A DNA stretch of 64,000 nt from Malacoraja senta (taxonomy: Eukaryota), in the NCBI GenBank assembly GCA_038087875.1, contig CM075993.1, positions 11,844,001 to 11,908,000 of the forward strand, given 5' to 3'. This document shows positions 6,711 through 50,909 of the stretch, in pieces (the stretch's first letter is position 1; each line of letters begins with the position of its first letter). The notes under the pieces were generated by a model. The model saw only the letters and a program-made list of their open reading frames with translations, made no database searches and was not told where the DNA came from. Made by a program: the position numbers and the translations under genes.

Positions 6711-7720
6711 CCATCCCTCTTCTCCACCTTGTGTAGGAGAGAAAGGGTCTCGACCCGAAACGTCACCCATCCCTTCTCTCCAGAGATACTGCCTGTCCCG
6801 CTGAGTTACTCATTTTGTGTTGACCTCTTCTCCTCCTTGTTCCCTTTCACCCTCCCTTGTGCTCATCTAACTCCCACTGCTTCCCTCTCTCACCCAATTC
6901 CTTTCCCTTCCCTTTTTGCTCATCCCCCCATCCCTCTCTACTGGAATACCCTATTTTCCTTTTCTCCCCCCTCTTTCACCTCCTCCCCCTCGCCCTACAC
7001 CCACTTTCCTGCCCTGCTGCTTCACACCATTCCCCCTCTTCTTTCTTTATCTGGAACCTTTCTATCTCTATTTCATCCCAAGCCCTTGTTACGCTCTGCA
7101 TCCTCTGCCACCTATCATCCACATTTCACTTGCTAGCTTTTGCCCCATCTGTTGCCCTGACCTCTCTTTCCCAGCTTTCTCCTTTCTACTACATCAGTCT
7201 GAAGAAAGGTCCCATCCCAAAGTGTAGTCTGTCCATTGCCCTCCACAAATGCTGCCTGACCCACCGAGTTCCTCTAACATTTTGTTTTTTTGCTCAGGAT
7301 TGCTCAGGTTCCTCTAACATTTTGCTCAGGATTGCAGCATCTGCAGTCTCGTGCCTCCATTACGTACTGATCATTGACAAATAACAGACCTAGATGATGG
7401 TCTCTCTCGGGAGTGAACTTGCACTGATAAAATAATTTAGAAAATAAATCTAATGGTGAAGTTGATTGTTGACACATATGCATAAAATTCATGGACCACA
7501 CTGCGTTGATTGTGGCAGTTCCAATGGAACCATCCCCTCTCCAGCCCCGATCTGTGCTCCTGCCTGATCAGTGTAGGAAGGAACTGCAGATGCTGGTTTA
7601 CACTGAAGATAGACAGAAAAATGCTGGAGTAAATTACCTGGACAGGCAGCAGCCCTGGAGAGAAGGAATGGGTGATGTTTCTGGTCGAGACCCTTCTTCA
7701 CACTATTCTCCAATTTTAGC

Positions 7721-7748
7721 CTGAAGAAGGGTCTTGATCCGAAACGTC
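7721..7748 (+). ncRNA. Hammerhead ribozyme motif in a fold-back PLE-derived unit
   Basis: CTGAAGAAGGGTCTTGATCCGAAACGTC. Confidence 0.68.
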
Positions 7749-7880
7749 ACCCATTCCTTCTCTCCAGAGATGCTGCCTGTCCCGCTGAGTTACTACAGCA
7801 CTTTCTGTCTATCCCCTATCTGATACAGTTGGTTTACCTCCTTACTCCAACATATACAAATACTTTAATAAATTCCCTAC

Positions 7881-8002
7881 CTGTACGAGTCTAAAGGCAC
7901 ATGGAACTCCTCTTCCGGACTGACCACACCAATCTGCTGCAGTGACTGCTCAGACGGAACTAATTTATAGACTATAAAGGAGATGGAGAAGTGGTTCTTT
8001 AT
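7881..8002 (-). CDS. VPS13C: VPS13C exon (IKNHFSISFIVYKLVPSEQSLQQIGVVSPEEEFHVPLDSYR)
   Basis: Manual translation; IKNHFSI and PEEEFHVPLDSYR match VPS13C; 122 bp, phase 0 to 2. Confidence 0.95.
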
Positions 8003-8313
8003 CTATGATAAATAAAACAGAGCATTTCATTATTTACACCAGTCTCTGACGTGACTACATCTTTAAGCAAAGTGCTGGAGTAATTGAGTGGGTCAGACAG
8101 TTAAGCAGTATCTTTGGGAAGTTCCGTGAACGGTACGTGTGAGTTGGGCCTGTTTCCATGCTGTCTCACTTTACAGATCAAGGCAGTAAACATTTAGAGT
8201 CACCGACTCTTCCCTGGTTCCAGCTTCCTAAAATACAACTGGTTCTCGTTTTGCATCAAATTCACTTCAGTGTGGACAATAATCTCAAATAAACTAACTC
8301 ACTGTATTAGTGA

Positions 8314-8703
8314 AGGGCCTGTCCCACGAGCATGCGACTGCATGCGGCAAGCGCGACCAAACCGGAAGTGGGGGCTGCGCGGAGGTCGAGTGATCCCGTA
8401 CGAGTTGACGTGAAGTTCGAGCGAAGTCCGCGGGAAGTGCGTGCGTGACGTATGGCATCAAGACGCTGCGTACGGCGTCGAGACGCTGCACACGCCCGTC
8501 GAGGCGGTGCGTACAGCCTCAATGCGGCTGCGGGTCGACAGGCCGCTGCTGCGCGGAATTTTTGAACAGTGTCAGTTTTTCGGGACCAACTCCATACAGC
8601 ACCAGCGATCGAAGTGGGACCGGCCCCGCGAGGCCGTACGGCTCAAGCGACCACGTTATGTCGCGCTTGCCGCATGCAATCGCATGCTCGTGGGACAGGC
8701 CCT
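8314..8703. mobile_element. PIF/Harbinger-like MITE
   Basis: TIRs AGGGCCTGTCCCACGAGCATGCGA... of about 45 bp; 3-bp TSD TGA; CpG-rich, so probably young. Confidence 0.8.
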
Positions 8704-8762
8704 TGAGGCATTGAAGACAATACTAGCAGTGTAATTGATATGGAGAGCTAAAGTGAACAATG

Positions 8763-47901: not shown

Positions 47902-47929
47902 CTGAAGAAGGGTCTCGACCCGAAACGTC
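47902..47929 (+). ncRNA. Minimal type I hammerhead ribozyme motif (PLE-associated)
   Basis: CTGAAGA-A-GGGTC-tc-GACCC-GAAA-CG-TC: catalytic core, perfect stem II, palindromic ACGT in place of stem III, GUC cleavage triplet. Confidence 0.75.
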
Positions 47930-48580
47930 ACCCATTCCTTCTCTCCAGAGATGCTGCCTGTCCCGCTGAGTTACTCCAGCATTTTGTGTCTACCTATAGG
48001 TGAGGGGGGTTGTTTGGAGGATGGGTGGACAAAGGCCAGAGATGAAAAGAGATAATGAGATAAGGAGAGAAGAGATGCGAATTGTGCAGCCAGAAAATTT
48101 AACTGAGGTTGAAGGGGGATGGGGGAGAGGGAGGGAGAGAATGGGTGTGAATCCAGGCGGGGCACAGGGAAGAGGGGGTGGGGAAATGTTGGGGGGGGGG
48201 GGGGGAAGGAGGTCGGAGAGAGGGTGTTTATTAGTTTGTTACCTAAAATTGGAATCTGCCTGCGTTCACATCATCAACCATATTATCTCACAAAGGATAA
48301 TAATACCAAAAAAATGCACTGGAGCAACTCAGTGGATCAGGCAACATGGAAGATGTGGATAAAGAACATTTGAGTTTGGGACTCTTCAGACCCATCCTGC
48401 CCCGAAACATCACCCATCCAGGTCCTCCACAGATGCTGCCTTACCCACTCCAGCACTTGTGTGTTTTTTGTAAACCAGCATCTGCAGTTCCTTGTATGTC
48501 TAAATACTACTTGCATTTGTTTGATGAAACAACTGCTAACTTTTGGACATGAAAATGAAGAGTTAGTGCAGAGTGAGTTA

Positions 48581-49015
48581 TGGGCCTGTCCCACTTAGCC
48601 GATATTTAGGCGACTGCCGGCGACTGTCATAGTCGTAGCAGGTCGCCGAAAAATCGGCGACTGAACTAATGGGCCTGTCCCACTTAGGCGATTTTTTAGG
48701 TGTCTGCCGGCGAATACGACAATGGAATTCACCGAAGTCAGCACCGGCGACAACCTACGTCACCTGGCAACAACCTACAACATCCTGGCGACAACCTACG
48801 TTAACCTGGCGACAACCTACGACAGCACCTACGTCAAGCTACGCCCATTGGCGTCAAACCAACAGTCGCAACTGTCGGCGAAAAATGTTCAACATGTTGA
48901 AAATCCAGCGGCGACCAGAAAGACGCTACGACTCTTTGGGCGACTGAGGAGCCTACTCACGACCATACAGGCGACCATGTGGCGACAGCGTAGTCGCCTG
49001 AGTGGGACAGGCCCA
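48581..49015. mobile_element. Harbinger-like MITE with a duplicated 5' terminus
   Basis: TGGGCCTGTCCCACT at 48581 and again at about 48670; end AGTGGGACAGGCCCA; TSD TTA. One-ended relatives at about 44395-44762, 45690-45767 and 51448-51768. Confidence 0.78.
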
Positions 49016-50592
49016 TTAAGGTGGTAATGCTGAAGTGAAAGATTAGCTGCCATCACAGTGGATGCCAGATGCCAGTGGGCCAGGTTCCTACCCCTGCTTT
49101 TATTTTTCATGTTTGTGCAACCCTAACGTCTTCACACACTTACAAATGCTAAACCTCTTTGCAGCAAGACTTAAAAATACATTCATAGCTCTCATCTTAA
49201 ATTTCAGTATTTAAACACCAGTTATGTGTCTTGGTCATAGAAACAGCACAAAAATGACCCCTTCGGCCCAACCCCTCCATGTCGAGCAAGAAGCCCCATC
49301 TAAGCTAGTCCCATTTCCCTTGTTTAGTCCACATCCCTCTGAACCTTTGTTATCCCATATACCTGCCCAAATGCCACTTCTGACTTACTCTCTACTGAAT
49401 TATAGAACCACTCTACCATCATCCCAGGCTCTGCTCTCATCTACACCAAAACAAACCAATAAAATCAGCTACCCTTATCCATGATTCAGTAAGTTTAACT
49501 TACTAAACTGATTTAACTCTTGTATCGAGATGTAATTCTTGTATCAAGAGATACTCTTGTATCAAAGTCTTTTTCACTGCCCACCCTTACTGTCAGTGGG
49601 AACACCGCCGCTGAGAGCAGAAAAGGGGAAGACACAAGGTAGACAAAACTTGGCGTAGAAAATTATCTGACTGTGAACCACTTACTTACCTACCAACCTT
49701 ACAGAGATCAACAGTGTATCGTTTCCATTTAACAAAATCATTGGACAGGACTTTAGGATGCACCATATTTGTCTGACAGGCTCATTGCCCTTGTCCTTGA
49801 GGCAGTGGCGATGAGTTGCCTTCTTTGACCACTGTGGTGCTTCTGCTGCAGATACTTGCACCATGTTATTGGGTGGAACGCTCCATGTGCTCAATCCACC
49901 TCCCAGAACCAACTGCCCCAAAAGGAATGAAACTAAACCACCCTCTATCCAAGAACCTACTGAAGAAGGAAACAATGTCCCATTGCTGTGAAGAGGTCTG
50001 AAGACATTAGGCTGCAGCAAAATTCAAACTAGACCTTAAGGAGGAGGAGAAGCACATGATGGATGCATGACAGTTTACACCAATGAAAAATGTCAAAGCT
50101 GTTCTATGACAACTATAATGTTTAACTTTGTGCATGCATTGGGACATTATTTTACTTGATGGCACTGCTTTCATGTTGATACGACAGAGCACACCTTTAA
50201 CTCCCTTTTAAACTCGTACGTTCATGTTCAGAAGTTATAGGAGCAGAATTTGGCCATCAAGTCTACTCCGCCATTCAATCATGGCTGATCTATCTCTCCC
50301 TCCTAACCCCATTCTCCCCGCCTTCTCCCCATAACCTCCGACACAAAACCTGTACAAATTAAGAATCTGTCAATCTCCACTTTAAAAATATTCATTGTCT
50401 TGGCCTCTGCAGCCTTCTGTGGCAATGAATACGTGCATCATCAGTGTTGCTCTTTGTTTTGATATTTGGAGTAAACAGATTACACCGAGTTATGAGGGAA
50501 GGGTTAAATGTACAGGACAGAAGCTGGCCCATTTGAATGTACAAGGAGGAATGAGCACGGTAAGAAACAGGCCATAATGTTAAACCTCACAG

Positions 50593-50688
50593 AAACTCCG
50601 CAAGGATTACCTTGTTTCCCACATAGTGGAGTTAATTACAAAACTCCGCAAGGATTACCTTGTTTCCCACATCGTGGAGTTAATTACA
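50593..50688 (+). repeat. 48-bp tandem duplication
   Basis: aaactccgcaaggattaccttgtttcccacat[a/c]gtggagttaattaca twice. Confidence 0.9.
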
Positions 50689-50909
50689 AAAACAAACTAT
50701 TTCCTTTGCAAACCGAAGATGCGTCTAAAGAAGGATCTTGAACCGAAACATCACCTTTCTTTTCTCCAGAGATGCTGTCTGACCCGCTGAGTTACTCCAG
50801 CTTTTTGTGTCTATCTTCAGTTGAAACCAGCATCTGCAGTTCCTTCCTACATATTCCCTTTGCAAATTAGATTACAACCCCACAATCAACTATTGCAAAC
50901 GTGTTGTAC

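What the first reader, a model, noticed from the sequence alone, without database searches (positions are those of the whole stretch)
7572..50866. Dense family of hammerhead-ribozyme-bearing mini-elements throughout the VPS13C introns
Seen: about 15 copies on both strands of CTGAAGA-A-GGGTC-nn-GACCC-GAAA-CG-TC (for example 7721+, 14560-, 28700-, 30358-, 33070+, 34027-, 36483+, 39417-, 41987-, 47902+). Each is followed by a constant tail (ctccagagatgctgcctgacccgctgagttactccagcattttgtgtcta). Stem II variants often keep pairing (GGGTT/GGCCC, GGGTC/GATCC). Established: CUGAnGA...GAAA...UH is the hammerhead core; minimal type I hammerheads with a palindromic stem III, thought to work as dimers, sit in Penelope-like terminal repeats; an extra A after A9 is tolerated. 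Inference: this is a non-autonomous ribozyme retroelement family mobilised by PLE RT/GIY-YIG, whose remnants are also in the window. Minus-strand copies lie in the VPS13C pre-mRNA and could cleave it during transcription.
Basis: partly seen in the sequence, partly recalled or inferred. Interest (0 to 1): 0.85.

Follow-up and report, generated by a model that had tools for sequence, protein, structure and literature searches.

The report
Penelope hammerhead stubs filling fish introns
The repeated hammerhead-ribozyme motifs in these introns are short end-pieces of a Penelope-like jumping gene, present at an estimated several hundred thousand copies across a genome that is likely a skate's or ray's; most are mutated and likely do not cut the host RNA, but their ends likely record how the element copies itself.

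Summary
The motif is real: 14 near-exact copies in the window, none in shuffles, 18,728 exact copies genome-wide, about 0.7 million estimated. It is the minimal hammerhead in the terminal repeat (pLTR) of a Neptune-type Penelope-like element (PLE) whose RT–GIY-YIG gene lies directly upstream in longer copies. The minis show the known PLE insertion signature: two 3' ends about 38 nt apart, head-to-head pairs with one long and one short arm (51 of 57), and 10–15-nt target duplications. They are not VPS13C-specific (53 sense, 57 antisense). Only 29 of 450 copies are intact, stem II does not covary among copies, and the ribozyme fold is not predicted to form unaided, so pre-mRNA cutting is unlikely. 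Less expected: 145 of 450 copies start 1–6 nt before the core, none pile up at the cut site, and some young elements join an RNA end at +180–450 to a second hammerhead, often through A-rich filler. This suggests uncut short RNAs starting at a conserved TCAGT, with template jumps making two-hammerhead units. A cap-G test was inconclusive. The scan noted the same kind of element in two shark genomes.

The parts
7574..7811 (.). Head-to-head pair: minus arm 7574-7704 (element -2..+127, with tail), plus arm 7710-7811 (-10..+91). Element coordinate 1 = C3 of CUGAnGA; predicted cut after +28.
12367..12703 (-). Longer copy with upstream 3' UTR (-227..+134), core broken
14465..14590 (-). Mini with tail (-2..+123); core intact, stem II broken
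28630..28847 (-). Copy with 118 nt of PLE 3' UTR upstream; G12 mutated; follows the PLE ORF remnant at 28931-29297
28931..29297 (-). Broken PLE ORF remnant (RT thumb and linker region)
   Evidence: tblastn E 3e-19 with a natural PLE ORF
30292..30498 (.). Head-to-head pair inserted at a VPS13C exon-intron border; its 16-nt target duplication repeats the 5' splice site (donors at 30506 and 30290)
33068..33170 (+). Single mini starting 2 nt before the core, 10-nt target duplication
33964..34193 (.). Head-to-head pair (short minus arm, long plus arm)
34280..34504 (.). Head-to-head pair (long minus arm, short plus arm), target duplication, both cores broken
35706..35893 (+). Copy with about 100 nt of upstream 3' UTR, core broken
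36483..36577 (+). Mini (+1..+95), GAAA box mutated
38110..38305 (.). Head-to-head pair with overlapping centre and target duplication
39326..39446 (-). Mini with tail; one of two window copies with intact core, stem II, palindrome and 2-bp stem I; sense to VPS13C
41913..42017 (-). Mini of the young subfamily (UUCG loop, GUU site), intact, 13-nt target duplication; sense to VPS13C
42082..42314 (.). Head-to-head pair, cores broken or missing (source of the sub-threshold Rfam MIR856 hairpin hit)
47296..47995 (+). Cluster: 47296-47397 (+) with an inverted tail piece to 47469, 47590-47737 (+), and 47901-47995 (+; exact 28-mer but no stem I)
50723..50855 (+). Mini with tail and 15-nt target duplication, core broken
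2868..3543 (.). PLE ORF remnants: RT thumb/linker 2868-3352 on minus, GIY-YIG piece 3349-3543 inverted on plus
   Evidence: tblastn E 3e-48 and 3e-26
4503..51256 (-). Host gene VPS13C: exons at about 50909-51256, 46926-47078, 35360-35539, 34639-34848, 32730-32966, 30507-30875, 23646-23741, 22285-22470, 15748-16047, 12678-12917, 7880-8002, 4503-4814; the gene runs beyond both window ends

Best explanation
The copies are short insertions of the hammerhead-bearing end of a Neptune-type Penelope-like retrotransposon, likely made by the full element's own enzyme from RNAs that likely begin just before the hammerhead, and they are likely dead on arrival. Shown: longer copies carry RT, a CxxxxCxxC linker and GIY-YIG, then a 3' UTR of about 115-190 nt, the hammerhead, and ends at +93 or about +131; in tandem copies the same segment runs on into the ORF start. 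Inferred from the Anolis PAc biochemistry: the endonuclease cuts both target strands 10-15 nt apart; RT primes inside the RNA at +93 or +131, usually one site for each strand, which gives head-to-head pairs with the tail on one side; cDNA stops at the RNA 5' end at -3..0, at a TCAGT kept in all subfamilies that likely is a transcription initiator. The template was likely not cut at the hammerhead site. After insertion the copies decay neutrally and likely do not cleave VPS13C pre-mRNA to any useful extent.
For: Same-strand hammerhead 745-852 nt after the RT-thumb match in 12 of 20 loci, inverted copy upstream in 6 of 20. Open ORF with RVT_1 and GIY-YIG hits followed by the motif, and pLTR-to-ORF junctions. 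3' ends: 175 of 450 at +86..99 and 161 at +120..135. 76 head-to-head, 3 tail-to-tail, 19 direct among 98 close neighbours; 51 of 57 classifiable pairs have one short and one long arm (28.5 expected, p 3e-10; 19 pairs unclassifiable). Target duplications in 21 of 113 single minis against 0 of 600 controls, 15 of the 21 within 4 nt of the core, and in 28 of 53 pairs against 3.5%. 5' starts: 145 of 450 at -5..0, only 6 at +28..30 against 50 over 19 neighbouring positions; flanks beyond -4 have random composition. None of the 13 ORF-bearing young copies that reach the upstream hammerhead stops at -5..+6, so the sequence alone does not halt RT. Neutral decay: core 0.947 against tail 0.933 conserved (p 0.23), G12 0.74 at a CpG. 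VPS13C: 53 sense, 57 antisense (p 0.78). Constraint in the source elements: 0 of 23 subfamily-level changes in 11 core positions (p 0.035); hammerhead zone 79-94% identical between subfamilies against 51-81% upstream.
Against: The RNA 5' end is inferred from DNA only. The cap-G test was negative at -4 (G/A 0.53, background 0.60-0.80) and inconclusive at -3 (1.39 raw, 1.07-1.23 after removing junction and long copies, background 0.84-1.10). Starts are spread over about 6 nt. Since no full-ORF copy starts at -3..0 (0 of 16), long copies need a different, read-through RNA or a seamless strand transfer. Intact copies in VPS13C are 6 sense against 1 antisense (p 0.054), unexplained. One small cluster (6 copies) had no ORF-linked member. 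Both Pfam hits on the ORF are below the curated cut-offs.
Confidence: 0.75

Rival explanations
1. A self-propagating non-autonomous ribozyme retroelement family: short elements are transcribed, cleave as dimers, circularise and are copied by the PLE enzyme.
For: Short two-hammerhead elements exist: 14 of 30 young loci (11 independent events) join the 5' part, ending at +262..+290 or +565, to a second hammerhead end; spacing 293-350 nt where both cores remain, like non-LTR retrozyme units. They keep the sequence past the tail. Minis outnumber long copies (142 short against 50 long among 192). One cluster of 6 has no long member.
Against: The three large clusters all contain ORF-linked copies. 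Minis end at +93/+131 and lack the downstream segment that the Anolis protein needs (PMC11167929, by analogy). Junctions do not lie at the cut site and often carry filler. Exact tail-to-head tandems of minis are rare (9 matches to one pattern). The dimer fold costs 19-20 kcal/mol over the best fold in two natural dimers.
Confidence: 0.15
2. The minis are ordinary 5'-truncated copies primed at the 3' pLTR of a full-length RNA; RT stalls just past the hammerhead because of RNA structure or the C-rich tract, so no RNA starts at TCAGT.
For: 5' truncation is typical of PLEs (Craig et al. preprint 10.1101/2021.04.23.441226, passages). Starts are spread over several bases and the cap-G signal is weak. 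The 5' end can pair with the tail end in a predicted fold.
Against: 0 of 13 ORF-bearing copies that pass the upstream hammerhead stop there, against about half to two thirds of other copies. In three two-copy elements both copies start at the same base (-3/-3, -3/-3, +6/+6), as expected of a fixed RNA end.
Confidence: 0.2
3. The boundary is a 3' splice site (pyrimidine tract, CAG|T), as in Drosophila virilis Penelope, and the minis come from spliced RNA.
For: All subfamilies have a pyrimidine tract and YAG just before the core. In D. virilis the intron ends at the 5' end of helix I (PMC4209133).
Against: No shared first exon precedes the minis: composition at -14..-5 is flat; copies keep C, A and G of the acceptor itself; joined elements have variable ends with filler. 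No GT..AG joint to this site was among the 15 joints listed of 476 in contigs.
Confidence: 0.07
4. Sense-strand copies cut the VPS13C pre-mRNA during transcription and so lower or regulate its expression.
For: 53 copies lie in sense orientation in 234 kb of the gene; 6 are intact against 1 antisense (p 0.054). The related PAc hammerhead does cut when its protein is present (PMC11167929).
Against: No depletion of sense copies. Stem I is 2 bp in 56 of 79 core-intact copies, with predicted pairing probability of 0.01 or less. Monomeric minimal hammerheads showed no detectable cleavage (PMC4209133). 21 of the 53 sense copies sit in fold-back pairs. Hammerhead cuts in introns were reported not to block splicing (PMC2995048, passages citing Dye 2006 and Fong 2009).
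Confidence: 0.05

Closest known systems
[quoted passage not shown]
   Same: Fits their consensus CUGANGAH-G..C-GAAAN-palindrome-NUH; extra base after A9; G10.1-C11.1; CG palindrome; mostly solitary copies; few inside whole PLEs; an inverted copy at the 5' end.
   Different: No cartilaginous fish among the species listed in their Table S1 and Figure S3 (supplement parts 1-2 of 3 read). Copy number here is far higher (44,845 with an exact core pattern, against about 4,000-9,000 in coelacanth and Xenopus). Helix I is only 2 bp. Junctions here do not fit their cut-and-circle model.
Canonical EN+ PLE insertion architecture, Neptune clade (Arkhipova et al. 2013, PMC3846280; Craig et al. preprint 10.1101/2021.04.23.441226)
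   Same: 5' truncation, partial tandems, adjacent inverted copy, 30-40-nt tail on one end only, target duplications of about 10 nt, C-terminal GIY-YIG after a CX2-5CxxC linker.
   Different: Most insertions here are reduced to 95-135 nt and start at one narrow site; a long proline-rich N-terminal region precedes the RT.
Poseidon PAc of Anolis (Frangieh et al. 2024, PMC11167929)
   Same: Two internal priming sites that bracket the tail, about 65 and 103 nt past the predicted cut site here; both strands cut and extended; hammerhead cut not needed for insertion.
   Different: PAc is Poseidon, this is Neptune-like. The paper reported no difference in start site between strands in vitro, whereas 51 of 57 pairs here use one site each. 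Nothing was tested biochemically here.
Non-LTR retrozymes (Cervera and De la Pena 2020, PMC7229834; Li et al. preprint 10.64898/2026.07.22.740005)
   Same: The rare two-hammerhead units of 293-350 nt have the size and layout of retrozyme dimers and derive from a pLTR.
   Different: Window copies are monomers or inverted pairs, not tandem arrays; the motif is minimal, not canonical; no RNA circle was shown. The preprint sampled one chondrichthyan; its supplements were not readable and may list this family.

Membership tests
Minimal type I hammerhead motif (PLE type) | Core CUGANGA, extra base, helix II closed by G10.1-C11.1, GAAA, palindromic NN, UH | tested here: met
   Column majorities of 168 copies fit; 110 of 450 copies keep the core, 29 keep core and all stems
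Minimal type I hammerhead motif (PLE type) | Helix I flanking the cut site | tested here: inconclusive
   2 bp in 56 of 79 core-intact copies; 2-bp cases are published for Drosophila and Culex (PMC4209133, Fig. S3 text); predicted pairing 0.01 or less
Minimal type I hammerhead motif (PLE type) | Covariation of helices | tested here: inconclusive
   None among genomic copies; subfamily-level changes keep pairs by G-U and spare the core (p 0.035); no cross-species alignment was obtained
Minimal type I hammerhead motif (PLE type) | Self-cleavage (as dimer or with protein) | not testable with these tools
   Folding only; no excess of copies starting at the cut site
Rfam hammerhead families | Match to a hammerhead covariance model | tested here: not met
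   No hammerhead model listed at E up to 1 in the window or up to 10 in four loci
EN+ Penelope-like element | Single ORF with RT and C-terminal GIY-YIG | tested here: met
   L129: 1061-codon open frame, RVT_1 E 7e-6 and GIY-YIG E 0.0013, both under the curated cut-off; homologues carry PF00078, PF26215 and some PF01541
EN+ Penelope-like element | pLTR with hammerhead, partial tandems, inverted 5' copy, one-sided tail, target duplication | tested here: met
Neptune clade | CX2-5CxxC linker between RT and endonuclease | tested here: met
   C-x4-C-x2-C at residue 928 of the L129 frame, before the GIY-YIG region; the feature is shared with Nematis (Craig et al., passages)
Neptune clade | Placement in an RT tree with named references | not tested
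Non-LTR retrozyme | Tandem repeats with a hammerhead in each unit | tested here: not met
   Window copies are single or inverted; met only by rare elements elsewhere
Non-LTR retrozyme | Expression as circular RNA | not testable with these tools
   No RNA holder listed; contigs only
Self-propagating non-autonomous family | Lineages of short copies separate from autonomous copies | tested here: not met
   Three large clusters hold long and short copies (27/75, 14/14, 2/23); a cluster of 6 has only short ones; 168 copies only

The most novel reading that the evidence does not exclude
The stubs are a fossil record of the PLE cycle: a promoter starts short capped RNAs at TCAGT just ahead of the hammerhead; the enzyme primes each target strand at a different internal site; cDNA runs off an uncut 5' end and sometimes jumps to an A-tailed 3' end 50-300 nt past the tail, making two-hammerhead units in one step. 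Tandem pLTRs and retrozymes would then be born by template jumping, without ribozyme cutting or RNA circles.
Probability: 0.35. Interest if true: 0.65.

Novelty: new member of a known kind. Interest (0 to 1): 0.36.

Why it matters
As a feature of VPS13C it matters little: these are ordinary PLE stubs at near-average density. As a data set it is useful. The role of the PLE hammerhead and the origin of pLTR tandems are open questions, and a genome with an estimated 0.7 million insertions allows counts that small genomes do not: where templates begin, whether they were cut, and which priming site each strand uses. The counts here point to uncut templates and template jumps, and they give a concrete, testable route from a PLE end to retrozyme-like units.

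Tried and rejected
Rfam: no hammerhead model matched; hairpin miRNA hits below cut-off come from fold-back pairs. PDB sequence search with the RT-EN part: 0 hits. Stem II covariation among copies: not found; 6 of 165 copies have A-U at G10.1-C11.1, which keeps a pair but loses the conserved one. Pile-up of starts at the cut site: not found. Cap-G: negative at -4, inconclusive at -3; the untemplated G before CAGT in 4 jump junctions is therefore not generalised. The clustering of jump points at +262..+290 is partly an artefact of my query, which ended at +256; unselected loci gave +179 to +451. A downstream promoter element at the Drosophila spacing (PMC2377424, passages) is off by 3 nt by my count and was dropped. 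RNA evidence: no RNA holder listed. Four contig sets showed a 6- to 15-fold fall in depth and loose ends at -3..0, but other subfamilies diverge at the same place, so I give this no weight. Cross-species loci were not obtained, so covariation across sharks and rays is open. Lunse et al. 2017 was not held and is known only through a review (PMC6765202). Repbase and Dfam were not available; this family may already be catalogued there.
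Full report
Coordinates. Element position 1 is C3 of CUGAnGA; the predicted cut is after +28; 0 is the base before C3. 'Intact' means core, four-pair stem II with G10.1-C11.1, palindrome and two-pair stem I.

Observation. The motif occurs 14 times in the window at up to 3 mismatches, never in 100 shuffles; the tail 11 times. 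Counting fragments gives 34 copies, 29 within the finding's span. The exact 28-mer occurs 18,728 times in the 1.94-Gb genome, and a core-only pattern 44,845 times. I sampled 1,062,200 bases: the window with 200 kb on each side and 60 evenly placed 10-kb stretches. They hold 450 copies, 214 in the 598,800 bases of the stretches, or about 695,000 genome-wide; the sample has 9 exact 28-mers where 10.2 are expected. The window's 5.3 copies per 10 kb lie within the range of the stretches (mean 3.6, 0-12). The host gene is VPS13C on the minus strand, spanning at least 234 kb. The nearest named relatives of the element's protein are from skates, rays and sharks (Leucoraja 74%, Hypanus 68%), so the genome is likely a batoid's (inference).

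It is the end of a PLE. A window fragment at 3100-3390 found 150 scored matches among 20,554 candidates. Of 20 loci fetched, 12 have the motif on the same strand 745-852 nt downstream, 2 at about 1,050 nt, 4 have none within 1.5 kb, and 6 have an inverted copy upstream. The intervening DNA is the GIY-YIG region, the stop codon and a pyrimidine-rich 3' UTR. Locus L129 has an open 1061-codon frame with RT, a C-x4-C-x2-C linker and GIY-YIG (both Pfam scores below cut-off). In L142 and L131 the hammerhead and tail run on into the ORF start, as in tandem PLEs. The linker points to Neptune (Craig et al. preprint, passages); no tree was built. Remnants in the window lie at 2868-3543, 1386-1517 and 28931-29297.

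Insertion signature. 3' ends are bimodal: 175 of 450 at +86..99, 161 at +120..135, 44 between, 70 shorter. Among 98 neighbours within 40 nt, 76 are head-to-head, 3 tail-to-tail and 19 direct. Of the 76 pairs, 57 could be classed and 51 have one short and one long arm (28.5 expected). Target duplications of mostly 10-15 nt flank 21 of 113 single minis (0 of 600 controls) and 28 of 53 pairs in the first sample (3.5% control, looser rule). This is the published pattern of an inverted copy with a tail on one end (PMC3846280, parts 1-3 of 5; Craig et al.). Frangieh et al. (PMC11167929, parts 1-2 of 4 and passages) showed that an Anolis PLE cuts and extends both strands and primes at two internal sites that bracket the tail. 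I infer the same here, with one site per strand.

Is the ribozyme real? The motif fits the consensus of Cervera and De la Pena (PMC4209133, parts 1-2 of 4, supplement parts 1-2 of 3). In the source elements it looks constrained: none of 23 columns that differ between sequence clusters falls in the 11 invariant core positions (p 0.035), changes in the stems keep G-U pairs, and the zone is 79-94% identical between five ORF-linked copies of different subfamilies against 51-81% for the 100 nt upstream. In the inserted copies it is not: among 168 aligned copies the core is no better kept than the tail (0.947 against 0.933, p 0.23), G12 is 74% kept because it sits in a CpG, and stem II pairing is no higher than in shuffles. 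Only 29 of 450 copies are intact, 2 of 34 in the window. No Rfam hammerhead model matched. Predicted folds bury the core in another hairpin; stem I pairs at 0.01 or less, and the dimer form lies 8-22 kcal/mol above the best fold, though such energies ignore tertiary contacts. Published minimal hammerheads cut poorly even as dimers, and the Anolis one needs its protein.

VPS13C. In the gene span 53 copies are sense and 57 antisense (p 0.78); unpaired ones 29 and 34. Intact copies are 6 sense and 1 antisense (p 0.054), the opposite of what selection against cutting would give, and unexplained. Six window pairs fold into hairpins of 66-95 bp on either strand, which would hide the motif. A review passage reports that hammerhead cuts in introns did not block splicing (PMC2995048). 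Cleavage with an effect on the gene is unlikely.

The 5' boundary. 145 of 450 copies start at -5..0 and 48 at +1..+6; 6 start at +28..30, against 50 over the 19 neighbouring positions, so there is no trace of cut templates. Among 142 short copies the bases at -3..0 are C 57, A 87, G 104, T 109, and further upstream the composition is flat. In 15 of 21 cases the target duplication ends within 4 nt of the core, so the minis were inserted at this length. All subfamilies keep (T/C)CAGT here, which fits the initiator consensus YYANWYY (consensus recalled). A search for the sequence just past the tail in the young subfamily gave 30 loci. Sixteen run on into the ORF; 13 of these reach the upstream hammerhead and none stops at -5..+6, whereas about half to two thirds of other copies do. 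By hand, 0.5 to the 13th power is about 1e-4. So the sequence itself does not halt RT; a class of RNA that begins there is the simpler reading, and long copies need read-through RNA or a seamless transfer.

Jump junctions. The other 14 loci (11 independent events) are short: the 5' part up to +262..+290 (one +565) is joined to a second hammerhead end that starts at -3 (4 events), +5 or +6 (2), or -22 to -189 (5). Six events have A-rich filler at the joint, and the four that start at -3 have a G before CAGT where the element has T. In three elements both copies start at the same base. Spacing is 293-350 nt where both cores remain. Unselected loci gave further joints at +179 to +451, so the narrow cluster is partly due to my query. 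The joints are not at the cut site, which does not fit the cut-and-ligate circle proposed in PMC4209133; they fit a jump from the RNA 5' end to a 3' end (inference). The genome-wide cap-G test did not confirm a cap: G/A is 0.53 at -4 (2,032 to 3,811; background 0.60-0.80) and 1.39 at -3 (8,923 to 6,435; background 0.84-1.10), falling to 1.07-1.23 after 51 and 50 loci were inspected and junction and long copies removed.

Known and new. The motif, its PLE link and the insertion pattern are known. Two earlier notes of this scan describe the same kind of insertion in shark genomes. A 2026 preprint (parts 1-3 of 5 read) derives retrozymes from pLTRs and sampled one chondrichthyan; its supplements could not be read. 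I found no paper on the 5' pile-up or the jump junctions in searches of a library that lacks most subscription journals; Repbase and Dfam were not available. Other papers were seen as passages only (PMC2377424, PMC6155905, PMC6765202, PMC7229834). Verdict: a new member of a known kind, ordinary for VPS13C, with mechanistic clues worth a test. Interest 0.36.

Noticed in passing
window 30282-30513 (minus): A head-to-head pair landed 8 nt into an intron and its 16-nt target duplication copied the VPS13C 5' splice site 216 nt downstream. Use of the second donor would keep the frame but meet a stop near 30402, a possible poison extension.
   Followed up: partly
window 51021-54797 and 55049-58814: A near-identical 3.8-kb tandem duplication (96% overall, 99% in parts) that includes a VPS13C exon and borders the 200-N gap at 54850-55049; may be an assembly artefact.
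   Followed up: partly
G000:C17, window-relative 47000-128000: The same VPS13 protein segments match two or three sets of exons (for example 103.6 kb, 55.2 kb and 51.2 kb), as expected of internal repeats in the protein.
   Followed up: no
window 9565-12264 (+): An open 899-codon frame with endonuclease and RT domains, a CR1/L2-type LINE ORF2, preceded by a GDSL-esterase-like ORF1 piece at 8735-9148.
   Followed up: no
window 25773-26354 (+): Tc1/mariner-type transposase fragment (HTH_Tnp_Tc3_2).
   Followed up: no
window 58743-61754 (-): Fragments of another non-LTR retroelement with RT and an ALKBH8_N-like stretch, likely Rex1/Babar type (label recalled).
   Followed up: no
window 19961-20066 (-): Weak U6-like match (20.9 bits, below cut-off) inside a LINE-derived inverted repeat; probably chance.
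   Followed up: no
L031, L032, L036 (G000:C1807, C6136, C4381): Arrays of 2.6-2.8-kb units, each with a truncated PLE, its hammerhead end and a short inverted piece, on unplaced contigs; a satellite-like amplification.
   Followed up: no
L201/L202 (G000:C2:45750072-45753196): A 350-nt unit (-83..+262) repeated about 2.4 times with identical joints, the closest thing to a retrozyme array seen here.
   Followed up: partly
L142:5702-5845: In the young subfamily the first 13 nt of the unit can pair with the end of the tail (z -2.0), and an 8-bp stem encloses the first priming site in several subfamilies; a possible protein-binding fold.
   Followed up: no
G000:C17, window-relative about -99000 and -63000: Short runs of tandem 40-50-nt pieces of the hammerhead inside single insertions, perhaps repeated RT slippage.
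   Followed up: no
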